A stretch of 64,000 nucleotides of DNA from Alphaproteobacteria bacterium (GCA_017507765.1 JAFWAG010000032.1:20919-84918), one strand, 5' to 3'; counted from the first letter of the stretch, positions 11,848-63,997 are shown. Notes: a model not told the origin generated them from the sequence alone. Program-made: numbers and translations.

Positions 11848-11856
11848 TCCGCACCT

Positions 11857-30150: not shown

Positions 30151-30245
30151 TTTCTTATCCGTACCTTATTGTCCTTTGTCGTATATTAAAAGCTGTTTGG
30201 CAATATTTCAACTGTTGCTGTCATGATTTATGTTTTTCCTGTTTC

Positions 30246-33568: not shown

Positions 33569-34636
33569 TTAAGCCAGCGAAATGTATACGATTTTATGCA
33601 AAACTTCACCGGCAGAGATTTTTACTCTTTCGTCCGGATTAAGCTGAAGACCATAGATATTTCCTTCGCCATCTTCTCTCAGGCTGAGCAATTTTACCGT
33701 ATTTTCCGCAGTGTATAACAGACCGAGGTCTCCGGGACCTGCCTCTTTACCGGGGTCAACAACAAATATCGCCCGAGCCGGAAGGAAAGTTCCCAAACGG
33801 CGAGAGGAAGATATGCTGACTGCATAGGCTTGATGCGGGTTAGAAACGGACGGAGGACACATGATTGCACCGGACGGATTGTTTTTATCAATAATGATAT
33901 CTCCGTTATCACCAGGTTTGCCGTAAACATTTAAGGAAACTTCACTGCGTTCCCGAGATTTAAGCCCCATACGGCCAATCGGCAAATCAGCGTAAGAGTT
34001 CTTTGCCGAAGTTACGGCACGGAACTTTGCATCTCCGGGCTGAATAAACTCTTCCAAAGCTCCGGTCTTATCCAAATCATAGACTTTGAGCTGAAGCTCT
34101 TCCGGTGTAAAACCAAGTGCCAAGGAAATATCCGAAAACTCTTTTTGGGTAACTTCTCTTTGACCCATTTCTATCCGGTGGTAAACCGAAAGCGTCAAAC
34201 CGGCTGCCGCTGCAACTTCCGCCAAAGTTAAATCCTTTTGCCCGCGAAGATAACGGAAACCGGCACCCATAGTCTTTATACCGCTTCGTTCATTGATTTT
34301 GCTGCGACGTTCCTGTTCTTGCCGCCAAGCAGCTACGACTTCCGGCTGAGACGTGGCTTCGTTGACAAAAATGTCCTGAGGATTGCATTTCAGAAAATCC
34401 GCAACTCTGACTAATTGCTCTTTATCTATCCGGCGGTATCCTTTTTCAATTTTGCTGACCGCAGAAAGGCTGATGCCTAAGAAATCGGCAAGCTCCTGCA
34501 TCGAAAGATTGCGGATACGGCGATATATTCTTATCTGGTTCGGAAATATAATTTCTTCCATGGTTCTTCCCCTTAATGATAAATCATGCAAAAACCCTTT
34601 TAAACACGGGATTTTATGCCGTAACTTTAACAGCAA
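33569..34636 (-). CDS. Transcriptional regulator with two XRE-type HTH domains and a C-terminal LexA/CI-like (peptidase S24-like) domain
   Basis: 355 aa; HTH1 IRIYRRIRNLSMQELADFLGISLSAVSKIEKG; HTH2 FRYLRGQKDLTLAEVAAAAGLTLSVYHRIEMG; C-terminal beta-rich segment ending ...TVKLLSLREDGEGNIYGLQLNPDE...GEVLHKIVYISL resembles the S24 fold, but the canonical GxSM Ser motif is not obvious. Confidence 0.6.
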   Translation of the reverse strand: MLLKLRHKIPCLKGFLHDLSLRGRTMEEIIFPNQIRIYRRIRNLSMQELADFLGISLSAVSKIEKGYRRIDKEQLVRVADFLKCNPQDIFVNEATSQPEVVAAWRQEQERRSKINERSGIKTMGAGFRYLRGQKDLTLAEVAAAAGLTLSVYHRIEMGQREVTQKEFSDISLALGFTPEELQLKVYDLDKTGALEEFIQPGDAKFRAVTSAKNSYADLPIGRMGLKSRERSEVSLNVYGKPGDNGDIIIDKNNPSGAIMCPPSVSNPHQAYAVSISSSRRLGTFLPARAIFVVDPGKEAGPGDLGLLYTAENTVKLLSLREDGEGNIYGLQLNPDERVKISAGEVLHKIVYISLA

Positions 34637-34680: not shown

Positions 34681-36387
34681 TTATGAATTGCGATCTGCTT
34701 CGTCGTTAAAGTGGCGATTCCAACGGTCGGCAGCATTGCGGGCAATGTTCTTAGCGCTAAATCTTTGCTTGGCAGAGGTTTTAAACTTATCTTTAAGATT
34801 TTCGCCAAAATTATTCTGAATATTCTTAAGGTTATCCTTAACTCTTTGCGGAGCGGCAGCAATATTATTTCCAAACGTTTTAACCTTATCTCCGGCGAAG
34901 TCTTTAAACTGTTTCGGCATGGCTTTAGCCCGACTTTTAGCATCATTAGCAAACTTCTTCACCGAAGCTCTGGCAGCTGCTCGTCCAGACTTGGTAGCCA
35001 AAGAAGTTATTGCTTTAGCGGCTTTGGCGGCACCGGCTGCCGCAGTGGCCGCTCCCTTGGCAGCAAAACCGACAGCTGCCGCACCACCCGTAGCAACCGT
35101 GGTCGCAAGCATGGCAACCGTAACCGCCGCCTGAACGGTGGTGGTAACCATGGCCGCCATTTTTGCGCCCACAGCCGCACCGATATTCGTACTTTGCAAT
35201 TGGGAATCAATGGAAACAAAATGGTTGGCTACGGCTTCCGACTTACTTAACAACATTAAAGCGATAATAGCGATAGCGAGGAATAAAAGCCAATCTACAC
35301 CATTGACATAAATATGCTGATATAACTGCTGAACCTGATCATTATTTAACATACTGTCAAGCTCTTCGGAACGGCCGATAGATTCCATAACTATCTTTAA
35401 AATCAACGCCATGCCTATGGCAAGAGCAAGCAATGCGACCAGTGCGTGCAGGAATAAATCCCAAGCTTTCTTCGTATACTTCCGTGTTATCGGGAAAACC
35501 CATGCGACCATAAGCAACGGCAACAGCATGGTTACAAAGCTGATACGAATGACAAAATCGATAACTCGGAAGGAAAAGCTTAAAGTAATTATAAAGAAAA
35601 CCAGCATTACCAAGAGACCGATAACAAACATACCCATATCGGGAATCTTGATTATCCACAAGTCTACTCGTCCCATGGAATAGCAATAAATACAGTTGCC
35701 GAGTGCGGTTCCTTTGGCGGCTTCTATATACATAGAGCGAATTACACAGCTTAGAGCGCTTTTAATCTGAGGAGACAGCGCCAGATGAGAAGAAGAGTCT
35801 CCGTAAACAACGTTGCCTTTTGAATCATATGAAATCGAAGAGCTTTCAGAGTTCTGAAACTGTTGGCAAATATCGTTTTTGATAAGTCCGGAAGCAATCG
35901 CAGTATCCGCACTTTGGACATTTAAGTCCGTAGATAAAATCCCCAAAGTAAGCTCTGTCGCCATGGAAACTACCGGCGAAACGACAAGGTCAAAAGCCTT
36001 TTGCGTCGGAATGGTCAAAATCGCAGCTATTAACGTCGTACGGAAAAAACATTTACCGATTTCGGTGAAAAAACCTTCCGGAGCTTGATACTTATAATTC
36101 ACAAAATACATACCGAAATGCCACAGTATCCAAAGCCCTAAACCAATTATCAGCAAATATAAGGACGGTTTTTTCAACGTGTTGTAACAAGCCGTAACAA
36201 CATTGTTGACGGCATCAAAAATCATATCGACAAAGGTACAAATAAGACAGCTGCTATAAAGCTCTGACATTACTTCGGTAGCTGTTTTACACGCAGCATA
36301 AGCAGAATCGGGAAACAAGCATACGCAGACAAGCGCAATTGCAAACGCTATTTTTCCGACCGTATTTTGTCCCTTTTTCGTAAACAT
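34681..36387 (-). CDS. virB6: VirB6/TrbL-like type IV secretion polytopic membrane protein, paralog 5
   Basis: 568 aa; signal peptide; CxxC motif (SSCLICTFVDMIFDAV) followed by a W-rich TM (GLGLWILWHFG) as in the four paralogs upstream; about 6 TM; Lys/Ala-rich hydrophilic C-terminal tail. Confidence 0.65.
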   Translation of the reverse strand: MFTKKGQNTVGKIAFAIALVCVCLFPDSAYAACKTATEVMSELYSSCLICTFVDMIFDAVNNVVTACYNTLKKPSLYLLIIGLGLWILWHFGMYFVNYKYQAPEGFFTEIGKCFFRTTLIAAILTIPTQKAFDLVVSPVVSMATELTLGILSTDLNVQSADTAIASGLIKNDICQQFQNSESSSISYDSKGNVVYGDSSSHLALSPQIKSALSCVIRSMYIEAAKGTALGNCIYCYSMGRVDLWIIKIPDMGMFVIGLLVMLVFFIITLSFSFRVIDFVIRISFVTMLLPLLMVAWVFPITRKYTKKAWDLFLHALVALLALAIGMALILKIVMESIGRSEELDSMLNNDQVQQLYQHIYVNGVDWLLFLAIAIIALMLLSKSEAVANHFVSIDSQLQSTNIGAAVGAKMAAMVTTTVQAAVTVAMLATTVATGGAAAVGFAAKGAATAAAGAAKAAKAITSLATKSGRAAARASVKKFANDAKSRAKAMPKQFKDFAGDKVKTFGNNIAAAPQRVKDNLKNIQNNFGENLKDKFKTSAKQRFSAKNIARNAADRWNRHFNDEADRNS

Positions 36388-36396
36388 TTTCTTCTC

Positions 36397-36618
36397 TTAT
36401 GCGTCCTTTTCTTCGGCGGTTTCTTTAGGTTGAAGAGACGGAAGCTTAGCCTTCTTTGTCTTCCAAGTCAGCCATCCGGCGGCAGCAAAACTTAAAATTA
36501 TCACTGCTCCGGAGGTTATATAAACCAACCTGCTGTCAAGCAATCCGGAAAGTCCGGTTGCTCCAAAAATAATTATCAGAACTATAAAACTAAGATAGTA
36601 TACCAGATTTCTTAACAT
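36397..36618 (-). CDS. Small 2-TM membrane protein embedded in the virB6 array (possible VirB3/VirB2-like accessory subunit; unassigned)
   Basis: 73 aa; two hydrophobic helices then a charged tail; tight spacing (20 bp after paralog 4 stop, 9 bp before paralog 5 start). Confidence 0.4.
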   Translation of the reverse strand: MLRNLVYYLSFIVLIIIFGATGLSGLLDSRLVYITSGAVIILSFAAAGWLTWKTKKAKLPSLQPKETAEEKDA

Positions 36619-36638
36619 CTTAGTCCCCTTTTTTCCAA

Positions 36639-38099
36639 TTACGGCTGAGCATTATTGCCTCCGCCTTTTTTCATTGCCGCCAACATGGCTAAACCAACAC
36701 CGCCTTGAGCTATCAATGCACCCGCTCTCATAAGGCGGCTCATCGCCTTACTGAATACCGCCGAGTTTGCTTTTGCTCCCGCAAACTGCGCCGCCATGCG
36801 GTTCATCGTGCCGATAAGCTTTATCAAATAAAGACCCAAGAATATCATCAAAAACATAGCTATCGGGAAGTTAAGGTTCGATTCAACAAACTTTGGATTG
36901 GCATCAATAATCTTTCCCGTCTCCATATAGCATATATCACCTACGGAACTTTTATCTCCGACCATAAGCTCATCAGATACACATTTCCAAAGGCTGTCGG
37001 ATTTATAGCCAACTACGCAAGTTTCCTTTTCTTCACCAATAGTGGTTTTATATTTTATACAGGTTCTGGGCATAACAACGCCAGAGGACGGATCCAACAT
37101 TTCATCTTGTCTGGAAACATATCCTTGTAAAACTTCCGGTTGATTCAAAATCAGCTTTTCCGGATCAAAGATATCCAGCTTCATAGTAAACTGTACCATG
37201 ATTTCTATCGCTAAGATTAGGAAGATAGCTATCATCACTATTTGCATAAACGTGGATAGGAAAATGTTCCAACCGACAATGGCGTATTGCCGCAAAAGCT
37301 TAAACGGCCAAAAGGCGATAAATATCGGCAGTAAGACAAATGCAATGCCAAGCTTGAACAAGCCGTCAACAATATAAAACGGGAAAAGAAAGTTCAAAAC
37401 ACCGAAAACAAGGAAGATGCAAATACCGAAAACTACGGCAATAAAGTCTCCGCTAGCTATCATTTTCTGGGCAAAAAAGTTACCGTACACCATGCGGGTA
37501 TGCATCTTTGCTATCAGACAGGAAAACGCATCGGATACGCCTTGCTGTAAAGCGTGGCCGCTGTCAATAACCATACTGTCAAAGGTATTGTTACAAGCAC
37601 TGTAATTAGTTCCATAACTGCCAAAACCGGAATTGATTACCGCCAGCGATAAATCAATAAATCCTTGGAAGACCGGCACAATCGTATAGCTTATCAGAGC
37701 AAAAATCGTATCTGCGCTCATCAGCAAAACGCCGCAGCATAAAACCGCAAAACTGGTTTTAAGCGAGTCGGTCCAGAACTGATTAACATCAGGCATTTTA
37801 TAGCTTAAAAACAATTTGCCGACATGGAAGAGTATCCAAATCGCAAAGCTTATCGCCATTAAAGCAAGCGCACCGTTCGCTATTTCATGATAAAAGACGA
37901 TAATCAAACTGTCCAAAGCGGCAAAAATCGTTTTGAAGATTGAGCAGCTCCAACAATGGCTCATATAGTCTTTTTCCAGTTCTTCCAAAGAAACGTCATA
38001 ATCCTTTGGGTTGCAGCCGGACAAAAGCAAGCAGGCTACTATTCCCACAAACAGGAAAAGCAGTTTAAAAAGCATCTCTTTTTTTTGTTTTTTATCCAT
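36639..38099 (-). CDS. virB6: VirB6/TrbL-like T4SS membrane protein, paralog 4 (lipoprotein-type signal peptide)
   Basis: 486 aa; LLSGC lipobox; MSHCWSCSIFKTIFAALD motif; multiple TM. Confidence 0.65.
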   Translation of the reverse strand: MDKKQKKEMLFKLLFLFVGIVACLLLSGCNPKDYDVSLEELEKDYMSHCWSCSIFKTIFAALDSLIIVFYHEIANGALALMAISFAIWILFHVGKLFLSYKMPDVNQFWTDSLKTSFAVLCCGVLLMSADTIFALISYTIVPVFQGFIDLSLAVINSGFGSYGTNYSACNNTFDSMVIDSGHALQQGVSDAFSCLIAKMHTRMVYGNFFAQKMIASGDFIAVVFGICIFLVFGVLNFLFPFYIVDGLFKLGIAFVLLPIFIAFWPFKLLRQYAIVGWNIFLSTFMQIVMIAIFLILAIEIMVQFTMKLDIFDPEKLILNQPEVLQGYVSRQDEMLDPSSGVVMPRTCIKYKTTIGEEKETCVVGYKSDSLWKCVSDELMVGDKSSVGDICYMETGKIIDANPKFVESNLNFPIAMFLMIFLGLYLIKLIGTMNRMAAQFAGAKANSAVFSKAMSRLMRAGALIAQGGVGLAMLAAMKKGGGNNAQP

Positions 38100-38118
38100 G
38101 CTTTACTTTCCTTTACAG

Positions 38119-40581
38119 CTATGACCGAGTTGCTTCCGAAGCTTTAATTGCGCTCTGATAATTTGCGAATTGAGTTTCACTCATCGTCAGAACCCGCTTT
38201 ACATCTTCACTGCCGTTAGCAATCCGTTCATAAACCTTTTGCTCTTCATAGGTAGTGGCCGTGCCTTGGCGGACTTTTGCCACTAAGTCTACATCATTTT
38301 TCATTTTATAAAAACTGTTGCCGTCAAGAGCGTTCATTTCCGCAAGACGCTGCTCGGAAGTCGTTCCGGTTATACCGTAAACTTCGCCTTTATAAACCAA
38401 AGCCTCTCTTTCCGCTGCGGACATTCTTTCAACCGCATCGGCACCGTAAACATTGCGGAGTATTTGAGCATTTCTATATGCTTGTTCGGCACTGTTTACC
38501 CCACCAATACCTTCGTTATAGATACTGTTGGCATTGGCATTACGACGCAAAGCAATTTTTGCCTGTAAAGATTCCCGGGTGGAATAAGAACCGTCTACAT
38601 TTAAGGCTTTCTTCGCCAATTCGATATCCTGCGGTACGGCATTAAAAGAAGCACTGTTCATACCGGCGTATCTTGAAGTTTTTGCATCGGCAACATAGGT
38701 ATTATATCCGGCGCTTGAAGCACTGCCGGAACCTGAACCTCCGCCTGCCCCACCACTGCCGGAGCTGGAAGAGCCGCCGCCTTTATATCTTTGTTTAGGT
38801 GCAGCGCCCATAGAGCTAATCATACTCCGGCTAGCACGCCAGTTGGCTAAACGACCGTTGCCTTTTTGAGATTCCAGAACTCCCATTGTCGCAGAGGCTT
38901 GGGTTACAACCGCAGCGACATTGGCGCTTACCATGCCTAAGCGGTCGCCAATGTCTGAGCCTATGGAAACGTTGGAAAAGTCTGTCGCAATCTGATCAAT
39001 CAAAGATAAAATCTTTATGGCAAAAACACAGCAAATAGCCGCAATGATGAAGTTAAAGGTGGAAAATTGTATTGCTTCATTCATTTTGTATACTTGGTTC
39101 GTGTTAAAGTAATCCTGCAAGGTTGAGGCTTCTTTTAGAAGCGTACTGCTGGATATGGTTTCACTGTTACCGCCAAAAGCTATTTCCACCAAAGCTATCG
39201 CTAATGACAAGACTATAGCCATGGAAATAAATACCATCACGACATGAAGCAAAAGATAGAAACCTTTTTTCGCAAACTCTATCGTTGGCGGAAATACCCA
39301 CGCAACAATTAACATCGGCAATAAAACCAATAAAAATCCCAACCGGAAACAAGCGTCTATCAGTTTAAAGACAAAAAGCAATGTCAAAAGGAAACAAACT
39401 AGCCAAATGACAACGCCCGTAAACAACATTTTAAGACTGGGGAATTGAACCGGTAAAATACCGGACTGTTCCGCCGTCCAAGCATGGCATAAAATCGAAG
39501 ATGACATGGCAAGTCCATAGGCGGTAGTATTATATAAATTACCGACCATACACATAAGTGCGTTATAAAGCTGACTGTTCAAAGCGGCGTTTTCCGTGCC
39601 GGACGGTTCGGTTTCCATAAGAACACAATAATGCGGAAGCATACTTACACCCAGAAGACCTATAATAGCATCGTTCTGGTCTTGCTCCATAGCTTGAATC
39701 TCGCTCTCTTTCTTTCTATCTAAGTCATGGATAGCCGCCTGACAATGGACAGAAAGCGTACAGGCTCCTTCCGGAGGATTGGCTTTACATTCGTTACATT
39801 CTGCTTTTTGTTTCGCATTCATTAATATATCCAACCCACCACATGGAGAAGCACAGGCATAACGAGCGTACACTTCGTTCTTTTGCAAGCGGTATTTTTC
39901 TTCTATCTGTTGCCTTTCCACCTGATAATTACGGTCTAAGTCGGAAATCTGGTCAGCGTTGGGACGTATCTTATCCGTTCCGGTAAAGCCTTGGGTAACC
40001 GCCATGCTGACTTCTGTCGCTCCGACAATTATGGGCGAAATCAATAAATCCGTAACCATGCTGACCGGCTGAACAAGGATTGCTCCGGCAAGCATTGCTT
40101 TGCACAAAATGGAAATAATGCCTTCAAAAAACTCAACCGGATTTTGTTCCGCCAGAGAACCGATATACCTGCCGACCTGAATAATCAGCCAAATACCAAG
40201 GAATACAGTTAAAATCTCTATACAGCCATGGGCTATTTTGTTGTAAACCGCCGTGGCTAAGGTGTTAATTGAACGGAAAATCGTATCAAATAAAGTACAC
40301 GCCCAACAATTATTGACATGAGCAAGCAGAACCGAACCGCTTGCCGGACAGTCGCCGTGCAAAGCATCACTGTAAACTGCGGCGGATTGCCCAATGTCTT
40401 GAGCCCCTTCGGTGATAATTTCGTTGGCTCCGCTGACAACGTCATCAACGGTTTCTGTTTGCGTCTCGGTCGTATACTGCGTACCGGTTGTCTGAGCAAA
40501 GACAGGAGCGGACATCAGCCATAAAGCTATGGCTGCGCATGATATAGCCTTGATAAAAAATGTCTTTGGCAATTTTATCAT
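38119..40581 (-). CDS. virB6: VirB6/TrbL-like T4SS membrane protein, paralog 3, with long Gly/Ser-rich hydrophilic C-terminal extension
   Basis: 820 aa; signal peptide; VNNCWACTLFDTIFRSIN motif; about 6 TM; C-terminal GGGSSSSGSGGAGGGSGSGS plus about 200-aa hydrophilic tail. Confidence 0.65.
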   Translation of the reverse strand: MIKLPKTFFIKAISCAAIALWLMSAPVFAQTTGTQYTTETQTETVDDVVSGANEIITEGAQDIGQSAAVYSDALHGDCPASGSVLLAHVNNCWACTLFDTIFRSINTLATAVYNKIAHGCIEILTVFLGIWLIIQVGRYIGSLAEQNPVEFFEGIISILCKAMLAGAILVQPVSMVTDLLISPIIVGATEVSMAVTQGFTGTDKIRPNADQISDLDRNYQVERQQIEEKYRLQKNEVYARYACASPCGGLDILMNAKQKAECNECKANPPEGACTLSVHCQAAIHDLDRKKESEIQAMEQDQNDAIIGLLGVSMLPHYCVLMETEPSGTENAALNSQLYNALMCMVGNLYNTTAYGLAMSSSILCHAWTAEQSGILPVQFPSLKMLFTGVVIWLVCFLLTLLFVFKLIDACFRLGFLLVLLPMLIVAWVFPPTIEFAKKGFYLLLHVVMVFISMAIVLSLAIALVEIAFGGNSETISSSTLLKEASTLQDYFNTNQVYKMNEAIQFSTFNFIIAAICCVFAIKILSLIDQIATDFSNVSIGSDIGDRLGMVSANVAAVVTQASATMGVLESQKGNGRLANWRASRSMISSMGAAPKQRYKGGGSSSSGSGGAGGGSGSGSASSAGYNTYVADAKTSRYAGMNSASFNAVPQDIELAKKALNVDGSYSTRESLQAKIALRRNANANSIYNEGIGGVNSAEQAYRNAQILRNVYGADAVERMSAAEREALVYKGEVYGITGTTSEQRLAEMNALDGNSFYKMKNDVDLVAKVRQGTATTYEEQKVYERIANGSEDVKRVLTMSETQFANYQSAIKASEATRS

Positions 40582-40672
40582 CGCTTTGTCCTTTTAAAAA
40601 GCCTCCTATCCTTCAAATATTATAACCTTTTTCCCGTTCCTTTAGTATGACAGTTTTTTGATTCCTATCCCT

Positions 40673-42715
40673 TTATGGAGTAACCATATCCTGCTCTCTG
40701 GCATACTTTGTGTAATCTAATCTGTCTTTAGCACTTGGAACAGCATCTCTTATTTCATTAATCTTATTAACATTCTTGGAGAATGATGCCTGTTCTTCCG
40801 GCGACAAACGATCATAATAACGTTGTTTAAGCTTCTGATATTCAAGCTTTCCTTCAAGCTTGTCCAGTCTTTCACGAGCAGCGTCTTGAGCCTCTGGTGA
40901 ATGTCTGCCGCTGGTATCGTTAATAATCATCATCTGATCCGACATTTCTTTAACCCTCTTAAAGTCGTCTTCGGCTATATTCAACAAAGAGGCGTTATGA
41001 GAATTAAACTTGCCGGTAGATTGATTATACAATACATCGTCCATTAATTTTGCTTGATAATTAGGAATATCAGGCTTAGTTCTTTCGGGTTCCGTATCAT
41101 TATGAGTATCCGGAACAACATCTTTCTTCGATGAAGACGACGATTTACTGTTCTTTACGCTTATCGCCATAATCGTTGCCGTAGCTTGCAGAGTCGTTGC
41201 CGTTACATAAGAAGCCATAGCACCGACTTTATCTCCTGCCTGCGAGCCAAACTCTACTTCCGTGTATTCACTGGCGGTTTTATCAACAACGTTCATTACC
41301 TTTACGCCAAAGAAACAGCAGGCAAAGGCAAAGAAGAACGATGAGCCGGATAAATCCATAGCGTCCCTAAGGCCTTGGATATCGTTAAGCATACACATCT
41401 GCCGCAAGTTTTCGTTTTCAAGCTCGAATGCCGTTATAAGCATAAGTATTGCCAAGGCTATGACTATCGCCAAGACAATGAAGTTCATCATAACATGAAC
41501 CAACATCTTGAAGCCTTGTTTCGCATAGTTCATAGATGACGGGAAAACCCATGCGACAATCAAAAACGGTAAAACTGAAGCTAAAATACCCAAACGAATA
41601 AGTGCGTCCAATACTTTGAAAACAAAGACAACCAAAATTATCAGACAGGTAAGCCAAATCATAATACCGGATATCAGCATAACAAAATCCGGACCGTTAA
41701 AGAAGAAATACGATGCTGCGTGCCAAGATTTACAAATAATCGCAGACGCAAACGCCATACCAAACGATACTTCTTTGTGTATCATCTCGGTCAAACACCC
41801 AAGAGCATTATAAATCTGCGTGTTAAGCATACGGCCTTCGTCCATATCCGGCTCTGCCAACGAAAGAGAACAACCGCTCATGGTCGCAAATGACGGGGCA
41901 GCAGAAAGGTTTTCGTAGGCGTCCATTTCTTCAAGCCACCTTAAAACGATACCAAACGCCGCATGGGTATTTATACCAAGAGGAAGAGTCAACGGGAAAG
42001 AAGAATAAATGTCGGCGGTAAACTGTCCGGTTTCCGATATTAAACGCCACATATTGCGCTGGTCTTTGGAAATCGCATCATAAAAAAGCGGCTTATCAAG
42101 TTCGGTTTTCCGGCTAAGCGTTTCCGTGGTTTCATCAAGTCCGGCATAGCTTTTTATAATAACTTGGTTAAACTCTACCGCTCCGACGACAATCGGCGAA
42201 ATCAACAGGTTGGATACATAGCTTATCGGCATGGTTAAAAGCGCACCGGCAAACATGGCTTTGAACAATGTCTTGCCCATTTTCGTCCAAAAGTCAGCAG
42301 GCTCTTGCGGACTGAAAGACATAAGATGTTTGCCAAGGTGATACAAAAGCCAAAGTCCAAGCAAAACCGTTAAAACCATCCGGCTTGGTCCGGCGGTAAG
42401 TTCATAAACTCCGGTACTTACCGTATCAATGGCATCAAAAATCTTTTCCACCAAAAAACAAGACCAACAGTTTGATACATGGTCGGCAACAATCTGGCTG
42501 CAAGTATCACAGTCGCCCAAAATTACTTTAACGACATTGTCATACATATCGTTAATGTTGGCGCCCATCCGGATTAAAGACAGGAACGTATCACGCAGAA
42601 TATTAACATCGGCAACTTCATCGGCGGCAAAAGAGCGCAAAGGAGCAAGAACAGAAGCAACAAACGCCGCAACTGCCGGAAGATATCTTTTAATGATGTT
42701 TTTCATTATCATCAT
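40673..42715 (-). CDS. virB6: VirB6/TrbL-like T4SS membrane protein, paralog 2, with hydrophilic C-terminal extension
   Basis: 680 aa; signal peptide; VSNCWSCFLVEKIFDAID motif; multiple TM; about 170-aa charged C-terminal tail. Confidence 0.65.
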   Translation of the reverse strand: MMIMKNIIKRYLPAVAAFVASVLAPLRSFAADEVADVNILRDTFLSLIRMGANINDMYDNVVKVILGDCDTCSQIVADHVSNCWSCFLVEKIFDAIDTVSTGVYELTAGPSRMVLTVLLGLWLLYHLGKHLMSFSPQEPADFWTKMGKTLFKAMFAGALLTMPISYVSNLLISPIVVGAVEFNQVIIKSYAGLDETTETLSRKTELDKPLFYDAISKDQRNMWRLISETGQFTADIYSSFPLTLPLGINTHAAFGIVLRWLEEMDAYENLSAAPSFATMSGCSLSLAEPDMDEGRMLNTQIYNALGCLTEMIHKEVSFGMAFASAIICKSWHAASYFFFNGPDFVMLISGIMIWLTCLIILVVFVFKVLDALIRLGILASVLPFLIVAWVFPSSMNYAKQGFKMLVHVMMNFIVLAIVIALAILMLITAFELENENLRQMCMLNDIQGLRDAMDLSGSSFFFAFACCFFGVKVMNVVDKTASEYTEVEFGSQAGDKVGAMASYVTATTLQATATIMAISVKNSKSSSSSKKDVVPDTHNDTEPERTKPDIPNYQAKLMDDVLYNQSTGKFNSHNASLLNIAEDDFKRVKEMSDQMMIINDTSGRHSPEAQDAARERLDKLEGKLEYQKLKQRYYDRLSPEEQASFSKNVNKINEIRDAVPSAKDRLDYTKYAREQDMVTP

Positions 42716-42723
42716 TTCAACCT

Positions 42724-44454
42724 TTACCCCGGATCCGAAAACAGCTTTTTACCCGTATTGGCAACCAACGAAGCACTTGACTGACCTATGGTAGCCAACG
42801 AACGACCTGCCGAAGCACCCATTTTATCGCCGACAGCATTACCAAAACCGGCACCCGCAACCGAAGAAAACTCTAAGCTGACATTGTCGACAATACCAAC
42901 AATTAAAATCGCAAAGACGAAACAAGCCAAAGCAACCAACATACTGGTACCGGAAAGATTCAAGTTCTTTGCCAGTTCTTCTATGTGGTTTAAGTAAAAC
43001 AGCGTGCGGATATCGTTAACTCCCGCCTGACCGGCATCGCCTTGGAATGCCATCATAACCAGTAAAATTGCCAACGCTAAGATAATGGCCAAGATGATAA
43101 ACATCATCACGATATGAACCAGCGATTTAAATCCTTGGCGTGCATAGCAAGATGTTGACGGGAATACCCAACAAATGATTAACAACGGCAGTAAAACACA
43201 TAAAATGCCAAGCCGCAAACAAGCGTCCAAAACCTTAAACGTGAAAATAAGCAGTAATAAGAAACTGGCGAGCCAGATTAAAGCTCCGGCGATGAAAGTT
43301 GGAATATCCGGATAGGAAATTACCGCATAGTGGTTAGCACCCTTGGCATAACAAACTATACACGAACCGACGGATATACCGAAGCTAAGCTCCTCTTGCA
43401 TATTTTTTACCATGCACATCAAAGCGGCTTTGATTTCCGGATTCAAGGCGCCGTACAAGGTTGCTTTATCTCCGCTTTCTTGAGCTGCGGCCATGGCGGC
43501 TTCGGCATCTTCGGCAACGTTATCCGTACAGTTGGTAAGAGAAGCAACATCTCTGCCGCCGCTTAAACGTCCCAAAGTTATAGATTTGTACATCTCGTCA
43601 AGCTGCCTATCCGCATCAACGCTTATCGCAACGCCGCCGGCAACAATAACAGCTCCGAAAGTAACAAAAACCGGATTTGCGGTTACGCTGCCGCCAAGCA
43701 TTGAAGCTCCGCCGACGGTACTGACGTAATCGGCGGCCTTGGAAATAGCGGCGATTTCCTCTTTGCGAGTTTCCATTTGCTCTTCCGTCCAGCGTTCGCC
43801 GGTCTTGCCGTCAACCAAATAGCTTTTGCCATACTCTGCCGACAAAGCCGCCTGCCCTCCGCTTTCATTGGCAAAACTGCGCACAACTACCGTAGAAAAC
43901 TCACTGGCGCCGACAATTATCGGCGATATAACAACTCCGGTAAAATGGCCTATGTTCAAGCTTAAAAACGCAAATGCAACTATCGCCTTTAAAAAGGTTC
44001 TTGCCATTTTTGTCCAAAACTCTTCCGGATCTTGGGGGACAAAGGCGCTGATGTGTCCTGCTATATGATACAAAATCCAAAACGCAAGCAAAAGCGCAAG
44101 CAAAGCCATAAAACCAGTTTTGGAAGCTTCAAAAACTGCGTAAGAAAGCTCATTTATCGCATCAAAAATGATGCTGAACATACGGCATGACCAACAATCT
44201 AAAAGATTGTCCGATAATACTTTGGCAGAATTGGGACAGGGGCCGGCAAAAAAGTTTAAAAAAGATTTGACCGCATCGTTAATGCTGCCTCCGGTCGCAT
44301 CGACAACGCCGTCAATAAAGCCCGCCGCCATTTGACCAAGGCTTTCCAAAAACGTCATGTCATCGCTTTGGGCGCGAGCCGTCCCCGGCATCAGCAAAAC
44401 AAGCAGTGCAAACAGTAATCCGGGGAAGCCGGCTATAATCTTAAACTTTGTCAT
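42724..44454 (-). CDS. virB6: VirB6/TrbL-like T4SS membrane protein, paralog 1
   Basis: 576 aa; signal peptide MTKFKIIAGFPGLLFALLVLLMPGTARA; LLDCWSCRMFSIIFDAIN motif; multiple TM. Confidence 0.65.
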   Translation of the reverse strand: MTKFKIIAGFPGLLFALLVLLMPGTARAQSDDMTFLESLGQMAAGFIDGVVDATGGSINDAVKSFLNFFAGPCPNSAKVLSDNLLDCWSCRMFSIIFDAINELSYAVFEASKTGFMALLALLLAFWILYHIAGHISAFVPQDPEEFWTKMARTFLKAIVAFAFLSLNIGHFTGVVISPIIVGASEFSTVVVRSFANESGGQAALSAEYGKSYLVDGKTGERWTEEQMETRKEEIAAISKAADYVSTVGGASMLGGSVTANPVFVTFGAVIVAGGVAISVDADRQLDEMYKSITLGRLSGGRDVASLTNCTDNVAEDAEAAMAAAQESGDKATLYGALNPEIKAALMCMVKNMQEELSFGISVGSCIVCYAKGANHYAVISYPDIPTFIAGALIWLASFLLLLIFTFKVLDACLRLGILCVLLPLLIICWVFPSTSCYARQGFKSLVHIVMMFIILAIILALAILLVMMAFQGDAGQAGVNDIRTLFYLNHIEELAKNLNLSGTSMLVALACFVFAILIVGIVDNVSLEFSSVAGAGFGNAVGDKMGASAGRSLATIGQSSASLVANTGKKLFSDPG

Positions 44455-44622
44455 TACTTTATACTGTCCCCATTTTTACACTTTAATTTTATTATAATAC
44501 GAAAAAATGACAAGAAGTATGACACTTTTTTGATTTTCTTTTTTGAGAGATAATTTTGCTGGGAAAAAATTAAAACTACTTTAATATGTATTTTATAGAT
44601 TAACTTCCGTTAAAAGACCTTT
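44455..44622. promoter_or_regulatory. AT-rich divergent promoter region between the virB6 array (-) and a hypothetical gene (+)
   Basis: 168-bp AT-rich gap; palindromic ATTATAAT at 44491-44499 gives a TATAAT -10 on either strand about 35 bp upstream of the virB6 paralog-1 ATG; -35 elements are weak. Confidence 0.25.
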
Positions 44623-45327
44623 ATGGAGCAGATTATGCAAAATCCCGAAGATTTAGCCGACTACAGACAAAATACCATTTTTTTGTATATGACATTATAC
44701 AACATTGCCCAAAGACGCTGTAAAGAAGCCGGCATACCCTTCCCTTCCATTTCTTTATCTTTGGAGGATTTAAGAAACGTAGACCCTCTGAATTGGGACG
44801 ATATGCAGGGGGTTATGGATAATGCAAAAGAAATAATCCGATATTTAAAGGAAACAGGTCTTGGTCCGAAGTCATCGCCGGAAGAAAGAGAAGCTCTTAT
44901 CGAAGAAAACTTTGATGCCGATAATCCGGAAGGTGCTTTTTTACGGGAAATTATGGCAAGAAGTAGAAACTTTAAGACTTTTGCGGAAAAGCTTTCTTTG
45001 GTGGATACCTTCCTTCTGATTGAAGAGTCCAAAAACGAATTAGCCGCTATTGAAGAAACCAGAAAAGAAGTGATAGCTAAAGTGGCAAAAGAAATCGAAA
45101 AAGCCGGCTTCCCCGTTGATGGGCAAAAATTAATCACTAACTATATGAAAGCATACGAAAAAGATAAAAAGGAAGCTTTTAAAATCTTAACCACGAATCC
45201 GGCTATGTTTGCTCCTTTGCAAATGGATAAGGCAAAAAAAGGACTGTTCGGCGGAAAGCCAAAACCGGAAGAAGGGCATCGTATAAACAAAGAATTAGGA
45301 AGATTTTTAAAGCACCTAAAGATATAA
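44623..45327 (+). CDS. Hypothetical cytoplasmic protein (helical, Lys/Glu-rich; basic C-terminus)
   Basis: 234-aa ORF with good coding composition; no TM or signal peptide; ends GRFLKHLKI. Confidence 0.45.
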   Translation: MEQIMQNPEDLADYRQNTIFLYMTLYNIAQRRCKEAGIPFPSISLSLEDLRNVDPLNWDDMQGVMDNAKEIIRYLKETGLGPKSSPEEREALIEENFDADNPEGAFLREIMARSRNFKTFAEKLSLVDTFLLIEESKNELAAIEETRKEVIAKVAKEIEKAGFPVDGQKLITNYMKAYEKDKKEAFKILTTNPAMFAPLQMDKAKKGLFGGKPKPEEGHRINKELGRFLKHLKI

Positions 45328-53078: not shown

Positions 53079-54056
53079 TCAGGTAACTTCGGTAACTGCT
53101 CTTATATTACCTTCGCGGTTTATTTGTACAACCCTTAACTTTTCATGCATTTCCTTGATGGTTTTGGCTCGGTCAATGGTCGGATAACTATGCAAAATAC
53201 GGTCTGTAAAGGCTTTGTAGGCTGCTTCGGAGTTTTCTGCATGAATGGTCGCAAAACAGTTTTCATGGCCGGAACCCATAAGCTCCCATAAAGCACCCGC
53301 ATTTGCCGTGGAAATCTCTCCGCCGATAATTGCGTCCGGCGTAAAACGAACAACCAAGTCAATAATCTTCGGATAGGTTAAATTGTTGGTTTGCTCCGTT
53401 CGGGATAAAACCAAGTGAACTCGGTTTAAATGAGGGACTATCAATTCGCGCGTATCTTCAATCGTAACAATACGCTTACTGGGTTCCAAGATTTTTAAAA
53501 GATTGTTCAAAAACGTTGTTTTACCGGTTGCCGTTGCACCGCTGACCAAAATATGGTCGCCACGTTTTATCGAAAACATAAGACGTTCAAACGGGTCTTC
53601 CGGTTCCGCCATATGCGCCAACGGATTTAATTGATGAAGCTTTTCACCTTTGCGAAGACCGTAATCGCCAAAGCCAAACTTTACATCTTCGGTATGAACA
53701 CGCACACACATTGCAACACCGCCGGTCAAATCTTCATTGTCATACATGACATTACGACCGGCAATTGCCGAAAAACGGTGGTCTCCGGGAAGGGTAGCAT
53801 AAACTACCGGCGTTCCTCTGTCCGGATCAAAGGGAAGTTCATACGTATTCGCAATAATATGAATAATATCATTTAAATATGTACGGGAAAGGTTTGCATC
53901 TTGCTGACAAACCCAAGGAATAGCTCTGCGGCCACGCAAACGGAGCCAGATTTCCCCCGGGCGGTTAACCGATATTTCTTCCACATTATCTTGGCTGTAC
54001 CAATAGGAAAGATAACGCAAAGTAGATTCAAGAACTTTAAAATTAGAATCCGTCAT
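53079..54056 (-). CDS. virB11: Type IV secretion ATPase VirB11
   Basis: 325 aa; Walker A ILVSGATATGKTTFLNNLL; Asp/His boxes; typical VirB11 length; 39 bp downstream of virB10. Confidence 0.9.
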   Translation of the reverse strand: MTDSNFKVLESTLRYLSYWYSQDNVEEISVNRPGEIWLRLRGRRAIPWVCQQDANLSRTYLNDIIHIIANTYELPFDPDRGTPVVYATLPGDHRFSAIAGRNVMYDNEDLTGGVAMCVRVHTEDVKFGFGDYGLRKGEKLHQLNPLAHMAEPEDPFERLMFSIKRGDHILVSGATATGKTTFLNNLLKILEPSKRIVTIEDTRELIVPHLNRVHLVLSRTEQTNNLTYPKIIDLVVRFTPDAIIGGEISTANAGALWELMGSGHENCFATIHAENSEAAYKAFTDRILHSYPTIDRAKTIKEMHEKLRVVQINREGNIRAVTEVT

Positions 54057-62591: not shown

Positions 62592-63997
62592 TGCGTCCGC
62601 ACAACAATACAGTTAAGACCACGGCGACTTAATTGCCCACAAATCTTATCGCCAACTTTAATATCACTGATGGGCCCGACCCGAAGACGGAATAAATCCT
62701 GTTCCCCGCTTTCTGCCGAAGTATCAACCGAGAAATACGGCTGATAACTGCCGATTAAGTCTCGATTACGGCGAGAAATGGTATTCCAAGAATCTTCCAA
62801 CTTAGAAATCTCTTTATCCGAACCAAGTTCTATGGCTATTTTTTCCTGTCCGGCAGGTGCGGCGGCAAAATATCCAAGACGCTGACCGTCTTTGGCCATA
62901 GAGGAAAGAGTGCTGCGAATGTCGGCTTTAGCACGGCTGTCCGCTACTCCCGTCGGAAGGGGACGCATACCGGCAGGTACGCTGTTAACACTGCCAGACT
63001 TGCCGTTGTTGCCAAGCCAAGCGGAAAAACTTTCTTCAATTACCATGTCTTCCGGCATTGCTTGTCCCGCAGCTTGCTTTGCGGCGGCATTCTGTGAACC
63101 GGGCATCTTTGTGGCATTAGGTCCGATAGGTGCTTGAACGTCCCAATGCTTTTCATTATAGGTGCTGTAATCTATGTAATCCAAGCCAAAAGCAGGATCT
63201 TTGCGCAGTTTAAGACATACTATTTTTTGTCCGTTTCTTAAAACCATGTCTCCGACTGCTTCAACAATAATTAAACGGCCGTTAGGACCGCGGGTACGAA
63301 AGCCAACTGGAACTTCACTATCCTGCACTATCAGATTGACAATCGGCCGCTCTAACATCGCCAAGGCTTTGGGGCCAAAATCTATGTAAGTAAAAATCTC
63401 ATCGTGCCAGACTCTTTCCGGCGCAATGTCAATATCGTTCGGGTTAGGAAGATATACTTCTATATCGAAGCGAAACTTCTCGGGATTCGTAGGAATCCCC
63501 TCCAACCAGTTCTTAGGTGCATTACTTGCTACGTTTAAAGCCGCCGAGGGATTCAGCGAATTACCCGGAATGGCGGGGTTCATTCCGCTGCCGCGCATAC
63601 CGCTTACCCAACCGGGGGTGTTACTGCTGACACCGCCGGTAACTCCGCTGCCGGAAGGAGCATTCGGAACAATAACATCAACAACTGCGTTGGTTATTCT
63701 GTCCGTATTGTATCCTTCGCTGCGAAGATAGAAGGCATAACGATTGCCGGAACGACCGAAAACGATAAGGTTGGAATCAACGCCAATCATACCCGGCTGC
63801 GTAAACAGCAATAACGAATTAGGAGAAGGAAACTCTCCGACAAAGGAAGAAGTATCGCCTATCCAAATGGAATCAATTACTTCCCAAGCAGGAAAATTGA
63901 TAAGCGTTGCCATGCTTTCCCGCAAACGAACCGGAAGAACTTTTTCCGGAGCCCAGCTGTAACGGGAATATCCCGGACTGGTTTGACCTTCGCCCAT
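62588..63997 (-). CDS. virB9: VirB9 (TrbG/CagX family) with a Gly/Ser/Asn/Pro-rich insertion between the N- and C-terminal domains; 5' end may lie beyond the window
   Basis: 469 aa or more; N-domain LFTQPGMIGVDSNLIVFGRSGNRYAFYLRSEGYN; C-domain HDEIFTYIDFGPKALAMLERPIVNLIVQDSEVPVGFRTRGPNGRLIIVEAVGDMVLRNGQKIVCLK matches the VirB9 C-terminal motif (dDG.fTYf.F....lP.vf.v..dG.E.lvN.r..g..lvV......l.LR.G); stop overlaps the virB10 start. Confidence 0.7.
   Translation of the reverse strand: MGEGQTSPGYSRYSWAPEKVLPVRLRESMATLINFPAWEVIDSIWIGDTSSFVGEFPSPNSLLLFTQPGMIGVDSNLIVFGRSGNRYAFYLRSEGYNTDRITNAVVDVIVPNAPSGSGVTGGVSSNTPGWVSGMRGSGMNPAIPGNSLNPSAALNVASNAPKNWLEGIPTNPEKFRFDIEVYLPNPNDIDIAPERVWHDEIFTYIDFGPKALAMLERPIVNLIVQDSEVPVGFRTRGPNGRLIIVEAVGDMVLRNGQKIVCLKLRKDPAFGLDYIDYSTYNEKHWDVQAPIGPNATKMPGSQNAAAKQAAGQAMPEDMVIEESFSAWLGNNGKSGSVNSVPAGMRPLPTGVADSRAKADIRSTLSSMAKDGQRLGYFAAAPAGQEKIAIELGSDKEISKLEDSWNTISRRNRDLIGSYQPYFSVDTSAESGEQDLFRLRVGPISDIKVGDKICGQLSRRGLNCIVVRTQ

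What the first reader, a model, noticed from the sequence alone, without database searches (positions are those of the whole stretch)
34681..44454. Five tandem VirB6-like paralogs sharing an N-terminal periplasmic CW[SA]C (CxxC) motif and lacking upstream virB3/virB4
All five large polytopic proteins start with a signal peptide (one with a lipobox). About 70-100 residues in, they share an almost invariant block [DN]CW[SA]CxxFxxIFxAIxxΦxxxΦY...ΦΦΦΦΦGΦWΦΦΦHΦG (SSCLICTF in paralog 5). They then diverge, with variable hydrophilic C-terminal extensions (up to 820 aa total). Multiple virB6 paralogs are the hallmark of rvh-type T4SS. The strictly conserved Cys pair in a predicted periplasmic segment next to the first channel helix suggests a disulfide or metal site, and a DsbA-family oxidoreductase is encoded at 18.4 kb. 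Upstream of paralog 1 there is a divergent hypothetical gene rather than virB3/virB4, so the usual virB3-virB4-virB6 operon is broken here.
Basis: seen in the sequence. Interest (0 to 1): 0.6.

Follow-up and report, generated by a model that had tools for sequence, protein, structure and literature searches.

The report
Five VirB6-like paralogs with periplasmic CxxC
Five neighbouring genes in an uncultured gut or rumen alphaproteobacterium encode divergent copies of VirB6, the inner-membrane subunit of a type IV secretion machine, and their conserved cysteine pair marks a large, undescribed VirB6 subfamily rather than this one lineage.

Summary
Five co-oriented ORFs (34681-44454, minus strand) each have a signal peptide (P4 a lipobox), a conserved CxxC block before the first membrane helix, and variable tails.

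They are VirB6/TrbL-superfamily proteins:
- Pfam TrbL scores are just sub-threshold in three of the five.
- TrbL hits 33 of 59 family relatives.
- AlphaFold models of P1 and P4 find R388 TrwI/VirB6 as their best solved-structure matches.

The CxxC is not lineage-specific. It is present in 157 of 158 sampled members of a family with 1,752 representatives at 50% identity, almost all from metagenomes. A. tumefaciens VirB6 and all five Rickettsia RvhB6 paralogs lack it, and the family profiles give no significant match to RvhB6a-d (RvhB6e was not scored).

The motif sits at the N-cap of the long helix that becomes TM1, on the periplasmic side. A second cysteine pair (C73-C368) is gained and lost together, which implies a disulfide that ties the N-terminal segment to the central loop.

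The missing upstream virB3/virB4 is the conserved layout in the relatives examined, not a local break. The module is a divergent ORF, three to five VirB6 genes, then a double-HTH regulator. VirB9, VirB10, VirB11 and VirD4 lie elsewhere in the window.

What the CxxC does is inferred, not shown.

The parts
42724..44454 (-). P1, VirB6-like paralog 1 (576 aa). Sec signal peptide, C73, C87-W-S-C90, a large central loop and a second CIVC at 365-368.
   Evidence: TrbL 19.4 bits; AF2 pLDDT 77; best PDB matches are TrwI/VirB6.
40673..42715 (-). P2, VirB6-like paralog 2 (680 aa). CWSC at residues 83-86 and a hydrophilic C-terminal tail of about 150 aa.
   Evidence: TrbL 25.1 bits against a gathering score of 25.9; 1:1 orthologues L002_2 and L003_2.
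38119..40581 (-). P3, VirB6-like paralog 3 (820 aa). CWAC at residues 92-95, a Cys-rich central loop and a C-terminal tail of about 250 aa.
   Evidence: (TrbL 22.9 bits).
36639..38099 (-). P4, the lipoprotein-type VirB6-like paralog (486 aa). Lipobox LLSGC, CWSC at residues 49-52 and a four-Cys insert in a late periplasmic loop.
   Evidence: AF2 pLDDT 78. TrwI/VirB6 takes nine of the ten best PDB matches, E down to 1.5e-4, TM 0.51-0.59; a lipobox paralog is present in every array examined.
34681..36387 (-). P5, VirB6-like paralog 5 (568 aa). CLIC at residues 47-50, a second CIYC at 232-235 and a Lys/Ala-rich tail of about 130 aa.
   Evidence: (weak NCBIfam TrbL hit on the tail).
44185..44196 (-). 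CxxC codons of P1 (CWSC). The equivalent codons are at 42458-42469 (P2), 40297-40308 (P3), 37944-37955 (P4) and 36238-36249 (P5).
   Evidence: translated back; 157 of 158 family members.
44486..44513 (-). Best sigma-70-like promoter match (TTGTCA-16-TAAAAT, 10 of 12), upstream of P1. Gaps between the paralogs are 8-251 bp with no intergenic terminator-like site, so a single operon is likely.
   Evidence: This is a consensus match only; the total number of matches is not above the shuffled expectation.
33569..34561 (-). Regulator with two HTH_3 (XRE-type) domains, immediately downstream of P5. It is a conserved partner of every array examined.
   Evidence: HTH_3 twice, E 9e-25; 48-86% identity in L002, L003, L005, L014 and L015, and orthologues start at MEEIIFPNQ.
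44623..45327 (+). Divergent 234-aa ORF upstream of P1, with no family assignment. It is conserved in the same position in L002, L003 and L015.
   Evidence: no hits; 29-67% identity.
53079..54056 (-). VirB11-type ATPase.
   Evidence: T2SSE; TIGR02788 VirB11, E 3e-40.
54096..62591 (-). Giant VirB10/TrbI (2831 aa) with beta-flower repeats N-terminal to the TrbI domain.
   Evidence: (VirB10/ComB10 models).
62588..63997 (-). VirB9/CagX-like protein with a C-terminal SPOR domain.
   Evidence: In relative L006 it is preceded by VirB8, a VirB7-like lipoprotein and a second VirB8.
9646..11847 (-). VirD4-type coupling protein, detached from the other T4SS genes.

Best explanation
The five genes are anciently duplicated, non-redundant copies of VirB6. 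VirB6 is the polytopic inner-membrane subunit that forms the pentameric base of the T4SS stalk. These copies belong to a chromosomal VirB/D4-type system whose genes lie in separate islets in an uncultured gut or rumen alphaproteobacterium. The islets in this window are VirD4 at 9.6 kb, the VirB6 array at 34-44 kb and VirB11-VirB10-VirB9 at 53-64 kb.

The proteins belong to a large, so far unnamed VirB6 subfamily. Members are exported with a cleavable signal peptide or a lipobox, so the N-terminus is periplasmic.

The near-invariant CxxC caps the N-terminus of one long helix. The first half of that helix is periplasmic and amphipathic, and the second half is TM1. A second, dispensable cysteine pair (C73 and C368 in P1) most likely forms a disulfide that staples the N-terminal segment to the large periplasmic loop.

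No other cysteine is conserved as strongly as the two in the CxxC. I therefore infer that they work as a unit: a Dsb-made intra-motif disulfide/dithiol at the periplasmic tip of VirB6. In canonical systems this is where VirB5 and the pilus assembly site sit. The unit would stabilise or gate that end of the channel.

The array is probably one operon. It travels with its own double-HTH regulator.

Shown: VirB6 homology and fold, the motif's distribution, the topology indicators, the Cys covariation and the conserved module.

Inferred: the oxidation state and role of the CxxC, co-assembly of the paralogs and the operon structure.
For: VirB6 identity:
- Pfam TrbL matches P1-P3 at E 1e-3 to 2e-5, on profile positions 79-189.
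- TrbL hits 33 of 59 family members.
- hhalign of the family core against A. tumefaciens-type VirB6 gives E 4.8e-4 and aligns LLPxLIxxWVFPxT with IGPLILVGYIFDRT.
- AF2 models of P1 and P4 have pLDDT 77 and 78 and pTM 0.72. TrwI/VirB6 chains take 8 and 9 of their ten best PDB matches, prob 0.95-1.0, and E down to 1.5e-4 for P4.

Motif distribution:
- The family has 1,752 representatives.
- CxxC is present in 157 of 158 sampled sequences, mostly with hydrophobic XX, and is followed by Pro in 86.
- Every paralog in L002, L003, L005, L014 and L015 has it.

Periplasmic location:
- A signal peptide or lipobox is followed by no TM segment before the motif.
- The mature N-terminus and the central loop are acidic, while the loops after TM3 and TM4 are basic.
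- The CxxC is at the N-cap of helix 88-136 in P1 and helix 50-98 in P4.
- The upstream Cys and C368 co-occur: both present in 122, both absent in 31, discordant in 4; Fisher p 3e-28.

Non-redundancy of the paralogs:
- Orthology is 1:1 and in the same order in L002 and L003, and the lipoprotein class is present in every array.

T4SS context.

Pentameric VirB6 at the stalk base, under VirB5: PMC12624023.
Against: - No individual paralog reaches Pfam's gathering score, and P4 and P5 have no Pfam TrbL hit.
- Sequence profiles find no solved VirB6.
- The hhalign probability is only 32%.
- The Cys covariation may reflect one or a few evolutionary losses, because the 31 sequences lacking both cysteines are mostly the CWFC subgroup.
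- Three family members (P0138 and the two L004 paralogs) have lost the CxxC, so it is not indispensable.
- virB2, virB3, virB4 and virB5 were not located. A complete machine is therefore not demonstrated.
Confidence: 0.7

Rival explanations
1. This is a true rvh (Rickettsiales vir homolog) system. The five proteins are orthologues of RvhB6a-e, the host is a Rickettsiales relative, and the virB3-virB4-virB6 islet has simply been broken.
For: - There are five large VirB6 paralogs with extensions.
- The T4SS genes are scattered.
- In relative L006, two VirB8 genes flank a small lipoprotein carrying ELKRSPC, which resembles Rickettsia VirB7 EIKSPC (PMC2653234).
- One paralog is a lipoprotein, as are R. 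typhi RvhB6e and A. phagocytophilum VirB6-3.
Against: - Profiles built from 158 family sequences give no significant score on RvhB6a-d.
- No RvhB6 paralog has the CxxC before TM1.
- The stand-alone array plus regulator is conserved across the family, so it is not a recent break.
- Related MAGs are labelled only Alphaproteobacteria or Proteobacteria.
- The window carries genes for a free-living style, including GGDEF-PAS, FadL, TspO and two-component systems.
- VirB4 and VirB9 duplication was not seen.
Confidence: 0.2
2. The CxxC cysteines form intermolecular disulfides between neighbouring VirB6 protomers, possibly between different paralogs. This would covalently close the pentameric ring at its periplasmic tip.
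For: - Both cysteines are kept in all paralogs of all arrays, and no equally conserved partner exists elsewhere in the protein.
- VirB6 is pentameric (PMC12624023).
- Arrays hold three to five paralogs in 1:1 orthology, which suggests co-assembly.
Against: - No multimer model or distance data are available.
- A CxxC at a helix N-cap more commonly forms an intra-motif disulfide.
- The number of paralogs varies (3, 4 or 5), so a fixed 1:1:1:1:1 ring is not general.
Confidence: 0.2
3. The CxxC is a metal-binding site for Zn, Cu or Fe, alone or together with C73 or with the motifs of other subunits.
For: - CxxC at a helix N-terminus is a common metal-binding knuckle.
- A third Cys lies 13-14 residues upstream in about 80% of members.
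Against: - The upstream Cys covaries with C368, not with the CxxC.
- The site is periplasmic, where Dsb enzymes oxidise cysteine pairs.
- The intervening residues are hydrophobic, and no second CxxC or His is conserved nearby.
Confidence: 0.12
4. The CxxC next to a membrane helix acts like the quinone-coupled CxxC of DsbB or VKOR, which would make these proteins membrane oxidoreductases.
For: Resemblance only, drawn from my own knowledge of DsbB and VKOR. Both have a CxxC with hydrophobic XX at the periplasmic end of a helix that enters the membrane, plus further loop cysteines. I ran no direct DsbB or VKOR comparison.
Against: - The motif lies about 20 residues before the hydrophobic TM segment.
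- Foldseek returns VirB6 and neither DsbB nor VKOR.
- The other cysteines are dispensable in subclades.
Confidence: 0.04
5. The array is not part of the T4SS. It would be an independent set of membrane proteins that only share an ancestral TrbL-like core.
For: - The array is physically separate from the other vir genes.
- It has its own regulator and its own conserved divergent ORF.
Against: - Arrays and VirB9-11 lie on the same contigs here.
- The fold matches the T4SS stalk subunit.
- No other VirB6 candidate is seen near the vir genes.
Confidence: 0.05

Closest known systems
VirB6/TrbL family (Pfam PF04610): A. tumefaciens VirB6 and R388 TrwI
   Same: - Polytopic inner-membrane protein with a periplasmic N-terminus, a large periplasmic loop after TM2 and a cytoplasmic C-terminus.
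- The LLPxxIxxWxFPxT / IGPLILVGYIFDRT signature is conserved.
- The predicted fold matches TrwI best.
   Different: - These proteins are two to three times longer.
- They are made with a cleavable signal peptide or a lipobox and an extra N-terminal segment.
- They carry a near-invariant CxxC at the start of helix 1 and further loop cysteines. A. tumefaciens VirB6 has a single Cys and no CxxC, and two Acetobacteraceae plasmid VirB6 proteins also lack it.
- They occur as three to five tandem paralogs, and sequence similarity falls below Pfam's threshold.
Rickettsiales RvhB6a-e (rvh T4SS)
   Same: - Multiple large, very divergent tandem VirB6 paralogs with N- and C-terminal extensions, one of them a lipoprotein.
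- A scattered T4SS archipelago.
- In a close relative, a VirB8 pair flanks a VirB7-like lipoprotein (PMC2653234).
   Different: - RvhB6a-e have no CxxC before TM1.
- There is no detectable profile similarity beyond the TrbL signature.
- The rvh genes are arranged virB3-virB4-virB6a-e. Here the array stands alone, between a divergent ORF and a double-HTH regulator.
- VirD4 is detached from VirB11.
- VirB10 is giant at 2831 aa.
Bartonella Trw system (tandem trwJ-trwI-trwH copies), from my own knowledge
   Same: Another T4SS in which the VirB6 homologue is amplified in tandem.
   Different: - Trw amplifies short R388-type VirB6 together with VirB5 and VirB7.
- It has no CxxC block and no large extensions. 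This was not tested here.

Membership tests
TrbL/VirB6 superfamily (PF04610) | Sequence match to the family profile at or above the curated threshold | tested here: inconclusive
   - P1, P2 and P3 score 19.4, 25.1 and 22.9 bits against a gathering score of 25.9. P4 and P5 have no hit.
- Transitively, 33 of 59 family members hit TrbL at E<=1e-3, best 2e-9.
- hhalign of the family core against A. tumefaciens-type VirB6 gives E 4.8e-4, prob 32%.
TrbL/VirB6 superfamily (PF04610) | VirB6 fold, as in R388 TrwI in the T4SS stalk | tested here: met
   - P1 model: 8 of the top 10 Foldseek PDB matches are TrwI/VirB6, prob 0.95-1.0.
- P4 model: 9 of the top 10, E 1.5e-4 to 0.33, TM (target) 0.51-0.59.
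TrbL/VirB6 superfamily (PF04610) | Polytopic inner-membrane topology with N-terminus out, a large periplasmic loop and C-terminus in | tested here: met
   This rests on prediction only:
- hydropathy;
- AF2 helices;
- charge distribution;
- Cys covariation linking the N-terminal segment to the central loop.
TrbL/VirB6 superfamily (PF04610) | Conserved Trp after the 'FxxT' signature, reported as essential in A. tumefaciens VirB6 (PMC2653234) | tested here: inconclusive
   - P4 (VGW) and P5 (KAW) and the family consensus (kGw) have Trp within one residue of the aligned position.
- P1-P3 have Phe there.
TrbL/VirB6 superfamily (PF04610) | Encoded together with other VirB/D4 genes | tested here: met
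   VirD4, VirB11, VirB10 and VirB9 are in the same window. A VirB8 pair lies just upstream of VirB9 in relative L006.
rvh-type T4SS (Rickettsiales vir homolog); hallmarks as listed in PMC11077975 | Multicopy VirB6 | tested here: met
   Five tandem paralogs here, and three to five in relatives.
rvh-type T4SS (Rickettsiales vir homolog); hallmarks as listed in PMC11077975 | Duplicated VirB8, VirB9 and VirB4 | tested here: inconclusive
   - VirB8 is duplicated in relative L006.
- Only one VirB9 is seen in the window or in L006.
- VirB4 was not found in the window or in the flanks fetched, and the whole genome could not be searched.
rvh-type T4SS (Rickettsiales vir homolog); hallmarks as listed in PMC11077975 | No VirB5 | not testable with these tools
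   No VirB5 was recognised among the window ORFs scanned, but the rest of the genome is not available.
rvh-type T4SS (Rickettsiales vir homolog); hallmarks as listed in PMC11077975 | virB3-virB4-virB6 islet | tested here: not met
   A divergent 234-aa ORF lies upstream of P1. The layout is the same in L002, L003 and L015, and L005 and L014 also have no VirB4 upstream.
rvh-type T4SS (Rickettsiales vir homolog); hallmarks as listed in PMC11077975 | VirB6 paralogs related to RvhB6a-e | tested here: not met
   - The N-block and core profiles from 158 sequences give no significant score on R. typhi and R. africae RvhB6a-d.
- RvhB6e was inspected by eye and has no pre-TM1 Cys.
- Anaplasma VirB6 was not reached in the text available.
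Thiol-disulfide oxidoreductases (thioredoxin fold, DsbB, VKOR) | Thioredoxin fold or a DsbB/VKOR four-helix core around the CxxC | tested here: not met
   The models are all-helical VirB6-like, and no such protein appears among the Foldseek matches. Only the position of the CxxC at a helix N-cap is shared.

The most novel reading that the evidence does not exclude
The CxxC-VirB6 proteins define a major, undescribed branch of type IV secretion systems that is chromosomal and widespread in uncultured gut and rumen Alphaproteobacteria.

In this branch the pentameric stalk base would be a hetero-oligomer of the tandem paralogs, always including one lipoprotein paralog. The invariant periplasmic CxxC would sit at its tip as a redox-controlled or covalently cross-linking element, taking over part of the role of the missing VirB5.

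If the system shares ancestry with rvh, then rvh-like machines would not be a signature of Rickettsiales alone.
Probability: 0.15. Interest if true: 0.8.

Novelty: new variant of a known kind. Interest (0 to 1): 0.5.

Why it matters
VirB6 is the least understood core subunit of type IV secretion systems, and why Rickettsiales keep four or five copies of it is an open question.

This window shows that tandem VirB6 amplification also occurs in an abundant group of uncultured gut and rumen Alphaproteobacteria. In that group the copies carry a conserved periplasmic cysteine motif, and each array has its own dedicated regulator.

A motif kept in 157 of 158 sampled relatives, at the end of the helix that faces the pilus assembly site, gives a simple handle for experiments on VirB6 assembly and gating. 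Suitable experiments include cysteine mutants, redox trapping and cross-linking.

The finding also bears on whether rvh-like architecture is restricted to Rickettsiales.

Tried and rejected
- **Word-indexed protein search.** It returned only 5 relatives with either alignment as query. The exhaustive profile search was needed instead.
- **Sequence profiles against PDB.** They found no VirB6, only low-complexity noise from the tails.
- **Family naming.** Cluster look-ups gave almost no names, and tblastn of a family member against plasmids found nothing.
- **Literature.** Searches for the motif strings, for VirB6 or TrbL with CXXC, and for RF32 with T4SS found nothing relevant.
- **N block against the A. 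tumefaciens VirB6 N-terminus.** hhalign was not significant. The by-eye match of IFDxA...LW spacing is only a lead.
- **RvhB6a N-terminus.** Its 'C-x16-CIVAPFF' looks like a degenerate CxxCP block but scores -3 bits. I rejected it as evidence.
- **Window extension.** The exact window VirB9 protein is not on record, so I could not extend the window directly.
- **Anaplasma.** The VirB6-3 supplement text does not reach the TM region.
- **DsbA link.** I considered the DsbA gene at 18.4 kb as a specific partner and rejected it. It sits among housekeeping genes, with no conserved linkage tested or seen.

Full report
**What is there**

Five co-oriented ORFs fill window 34681-44454 on the minus strand.

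| Paralog | Coordinates | Length | N-terminus | CxxC |
|---|---|---|---|---|
| P1 | 42724-44454 | 576 aa | ARA\|Q | CWSC, residue 87 |
| P2 | 40673-42715 | 680 aa | SFA\|A | CWSC, residue 83 |
| P3 | 38119-40581 | 820 aa | VFA\|Q | CWAC, residue 92 |
| P4 | 36639-38099 | 486 aa | lipobox LLSG\|C | CWSC, residue 49 |
| P5 | 34681-36387 | 568 aa | AYA\|A | CLIC, residue 47 |

- Gaps between the genes are 8, 91, 19 and 251 bp.
- P2 to P5 are 24-35% identical to P1.
- Invariant positions include C73, C87, C90, W126, P178 and C347, plus the block LLPxLIxxWxFP.
- I checked the CxxC codons by translating them back.
In P4 and P5 the motif is about 48 residues in, not 70-100. The flanking consensus is also looser than written.
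- GC content matches the rest of the window.
- The best promoter-like site lies just upstream of P1, and no terminator-like site falls between the genes. One operon is therefore plausible but not shown.

**What the proteins are**

Pfam TrbL/VirB6 matches P1-P3 just below the gathering score (19-25 bits against 25.9), always on profile positions 79-189. P4 and P5 have no hit.

A profile of the five paralogs plus four close relatives was searched against 1.84 billion representative proteins. It found 1,752 matches at E<=1e-3 and 490 at E<=1e-30. Typical hits are 400-1600 aa, with one N-terminal and one C-terminal matched stretch.

- Of 59 diverse family members, 33 hit Pfam TrbL, the best at E 2e-9.
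- hhalign of the family core against A. tumefaciens-type VirB6, fetched from Ti and Acetobacteraceae plasmids, gives E 4.8e-4. It aligns LLPLLIICWVFPSTSCYARQGF with IGPLILVGYIFDRTRDIAAKWI.
- The AlphaFold2 model of P1 (pLDDT 77, pTM 0.72) has R388 TrwI/VirB6 stalk chains as 8 of its 10 best PDB matches.
- The model of P4 (pLDDT 78, pTM 0.72) has TrwI/VirB6 as 9 of its 10 best matches, with E down to 1.5e-4, prob 1.0 and TM 0.51-0.59. P4 is the paralog with no Pfam signal.

I conclude that all five are VirB6-superfamily proteins, in a divergent long form.

**The CxxC is a family hallmark**

- All ten orthologues in two related MAGs keep the motif.
- Among 158 family sequences aligned to the N-terminal block, 157 have CxxC at the same position.
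- XX is mostly hydrophobic (WF, IF, LF, WS), and the next residue is Pro in 86.
- The motif lies anywhere from residue 32 to 460, because N-terminal extensions vary.
- Every paralog in three further, distant loci also has it.
- Three members have lost it: P0138 and the two paralogs of L004.

Canonical and Rickettsia VirB6 proteins lack the motif.

- A. tumefaciens VirB6 has a single Cys, and two Acetobacteraceae plasmid VirB6 proteins also have no CxxC.
- I read the full-length Rickettsia VirB6a-e alignments from the supplement of PMC2653234. Before TM1 they read ECIRQMIARLLISKDVCSF (a), QCLSETLNKIFFAGKSCSA (b) and MVCYKSTDNTSC (c). Paralogs d and e have no Cys there.
- The only CxxC strings in RvhB6a-d are in the C-terminal TM region of b and c.
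- N-block and core profiles built from 158 sequences give no significant score on RvhB6a-d.
- No paper in the library mentions a VirB6 or TrbL CxxC.

**Topology and cysteines**

- A signal peptide or lipobox is followed by an acidic segment with no TM helix.
- In both models the CxxC is the N-cap of a 49-residue helix, 88-136 in P1 and 50-98 in P4. The first half is amphipathic and the second half is TM1.
- The central loop is net acidic, and the loops after TM3 and TM4 are basic.
- P4's late-loop insert carries four extra cysteines.
- This fits the N-out, C-in five-TMS model with a large periplasmic loop that PMC2653234 describes for A. tumefaciens VirB6.
- Across 157 family sequences, a Cys 13-14 residues upstream of the motif (C73 in P1) and C368 are both present in 122, both absent in 31 and discordant in 4 (Fisher p 3e-28).
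- This co-occurrence is best explained by a disulfide between the N-terminal segment and the central loop, which places both in the periplasm.
- The caveat is phylogenetic. The sequences lacking both cysteines are mostly one subgroup.
- P4 fits the pattern. Its only upstream Cys is the lipid-modified lipobox Cys, and it lacks C368.

**Context**

The window also encodes these T4SS genes, all on the minus strand:

- VirD4 (9646-11847);
- VirB11 (53079-54056);
- a 2831-aa VirB10 (54096-62591);
- a VirB9 with a SPOR domain (62588-63997).

No VirB4 is present. A relative of the VirB9 locus (L006, 69% identity) shows VirB8, then an 80-aa lipoprotein (LSSC...ELKRSPCAC), then a second VirB8, directly upstream of VirB9.

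The array itself is a conserved module. Every array examined (L002, L003, L005, L014, L015) ends with the same regulator carrying two HTH_3 domains. That regulator is 48-86% identical across loci, whereas the VirB6 proteins are only 20-38% identical. L002, L003 and L015 also keep the divergent upstream ORF.

- None of these arrays has virB3 or virB4 upstream.
- Orthology between the window, L002 and L003 is 1:1 and in the same order.
- A lipoprotein paralog is present in every array.
- The duplications are therefore old and each copy has been retained.
- VirB11 has more than 120 relatives at 75% identity or above. Every one that carries a source name is a MAG labelled Alphaproteobacteria or Proteobacteria, and one sits on a 1.95-Mb contig.
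- Related contigs come from rumen and gut-type assemblies.

**How it most likely works**

*Shown.* These are VirB6-fold proteins of a VirB/D4-type machine. The CxxC is periplasmic and nearly invariant in a large subfamily. A second Cys pair covaries.

*Established knowledge* (PMC12624023). VirB6 forms a pentamer at the base of the stalk, embedded in the inner membrane. VirB5 and the pilus assembly site sit on top of it.

*Inferred.*
- No other cysteine matches the conservation of C87 and C90, so the two act together. The most likely form is a Dsb-made intra-motif disulfide/dithiol at the periplasmic tip of helix 1, which would stabilise or gate that end.
- The paralogs probably co-assemble or alternate in the pentamer.
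- The double-HTH protein probably controls the operon from the 168-bp divergent intergenic region.

*Rivals.* Inter-subunit disulfides, a metal site, and a DsbB/VKOR-like activity. None could be tested without model coordinates or experiments.

**Comparison and novelty**

The proteins belong to the VirB6/TrbL superfamily by fold and by transitive sequence evidence. The system resembles rvh in multicopy VirB6, the VirB8 pair around a VirB7-like lipoprotein, one lipoprotein VirB6, and scattered genes.

It fails two rvh features that I could test:
- the virB3-virB4-virB6 islet;
- relatedness to RvhB6.

The other hallmarks (VirB4 and VirB9 duplication, absence of VirB5) could not be tested.

I file it as a new variant of a known kind: a large, unnamed, CxxC-bearing VirB6 subfamily with a conserved array-plus-regulator module.

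Noticed in passing
window 54096-62591 (-): Giant VirB10/TrbI of 2831 aa. About 19 beta-flower repeat stretches (Bflower_2, Bflower) and DUF3659 precede the C-terminal TrbI domain. The ORF in the equivalent position in L008 is 3309 aa.
   Followed up: partly
window 62588-63997 (-): The VirB9/CagX-like protein carries a C-terminal SPOR (peptidoglycan-binding) domain.
   Followed up: no
window 33569-34561 (-): A regulator with two HTH_3 domains and an unassigned C-terminal domain of about 130 aa follows every VirB6 array examined. It is far better conserved (48-86% identity) than the VirB6 proteins. Judging from orthologues, the listed TTG start at 34636 is probably 25 codons too far upstream.
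   Followed up: partly
window 44623-45327 (+): A divergent 234-aa soluble protein with no family assignment is conserved upstream of the arrays in L002, L003 and L015.
   Followed up: partly
L005 9026-12931; L014 5382-8711: In two distant arrays, one gene within the array (1301 and 1109 aa) carries a Peptidase_M23 (peptidoglycan endopeptidase) domain.
   Followed up: no
L006 8034-9770: The order is VirB8, an 80-aa lipoprotein (LSSC; ELKRSPCAC), then a second VirB8, directly upstream of VirB9. The small protein resembles Rickettsia VirB7 (EIKSPC motif, PMC2653234). Five secreted proteins of 239-900 aa with no Pfam hit lie further upstream.
   Followed up: partly
window 36639-38099 (-); PMC2653234 and PMC3556328 supplements: The lipoprotein paralog class (P4) is present in every array. 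R. typhi RvhB6e (LLSSC) and A. phagocytophilum VirB6-3 (VLSSC) also begin with a lipobox. This parallel may reflect homology or convergence.
   Followed up: partly
window 29245-33431 (-): Two very acidic proteins lie just downstream of the regulator. One is 1061 aa with repeated '...AESQEKTAxIISDAL...' units and long E/P-rich stretches, and the other is 301 aa. Neither has a family assignment. They could be secretion substrates.
   Followed up: no
window 43351-43362 (P1 residues 365-368) and 35683-35694 (P5 residues 232-235): P1 (CIVC) and P5 (CIYC) have a second CxxC that includes the C368-equivalent cysteine. P2 and P3 have a single Cys there.
   Followed up: no
window 9646-13140 (-): VirD4 is detached from VirB11. 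It is preceded by a 427-aa ORF and followed by a 298-aa ORF, neither with a Pfam assignment; the 427-aa ORF also has no NCBIfam hit.
   Followed up: no
L004 2561-7343: Two tandem family members from 'Proteobacteria bacterium UR.bin47' match the N block (64 bits) and the core (125 bits) but have lost the CxxC.
   Followed up: partly
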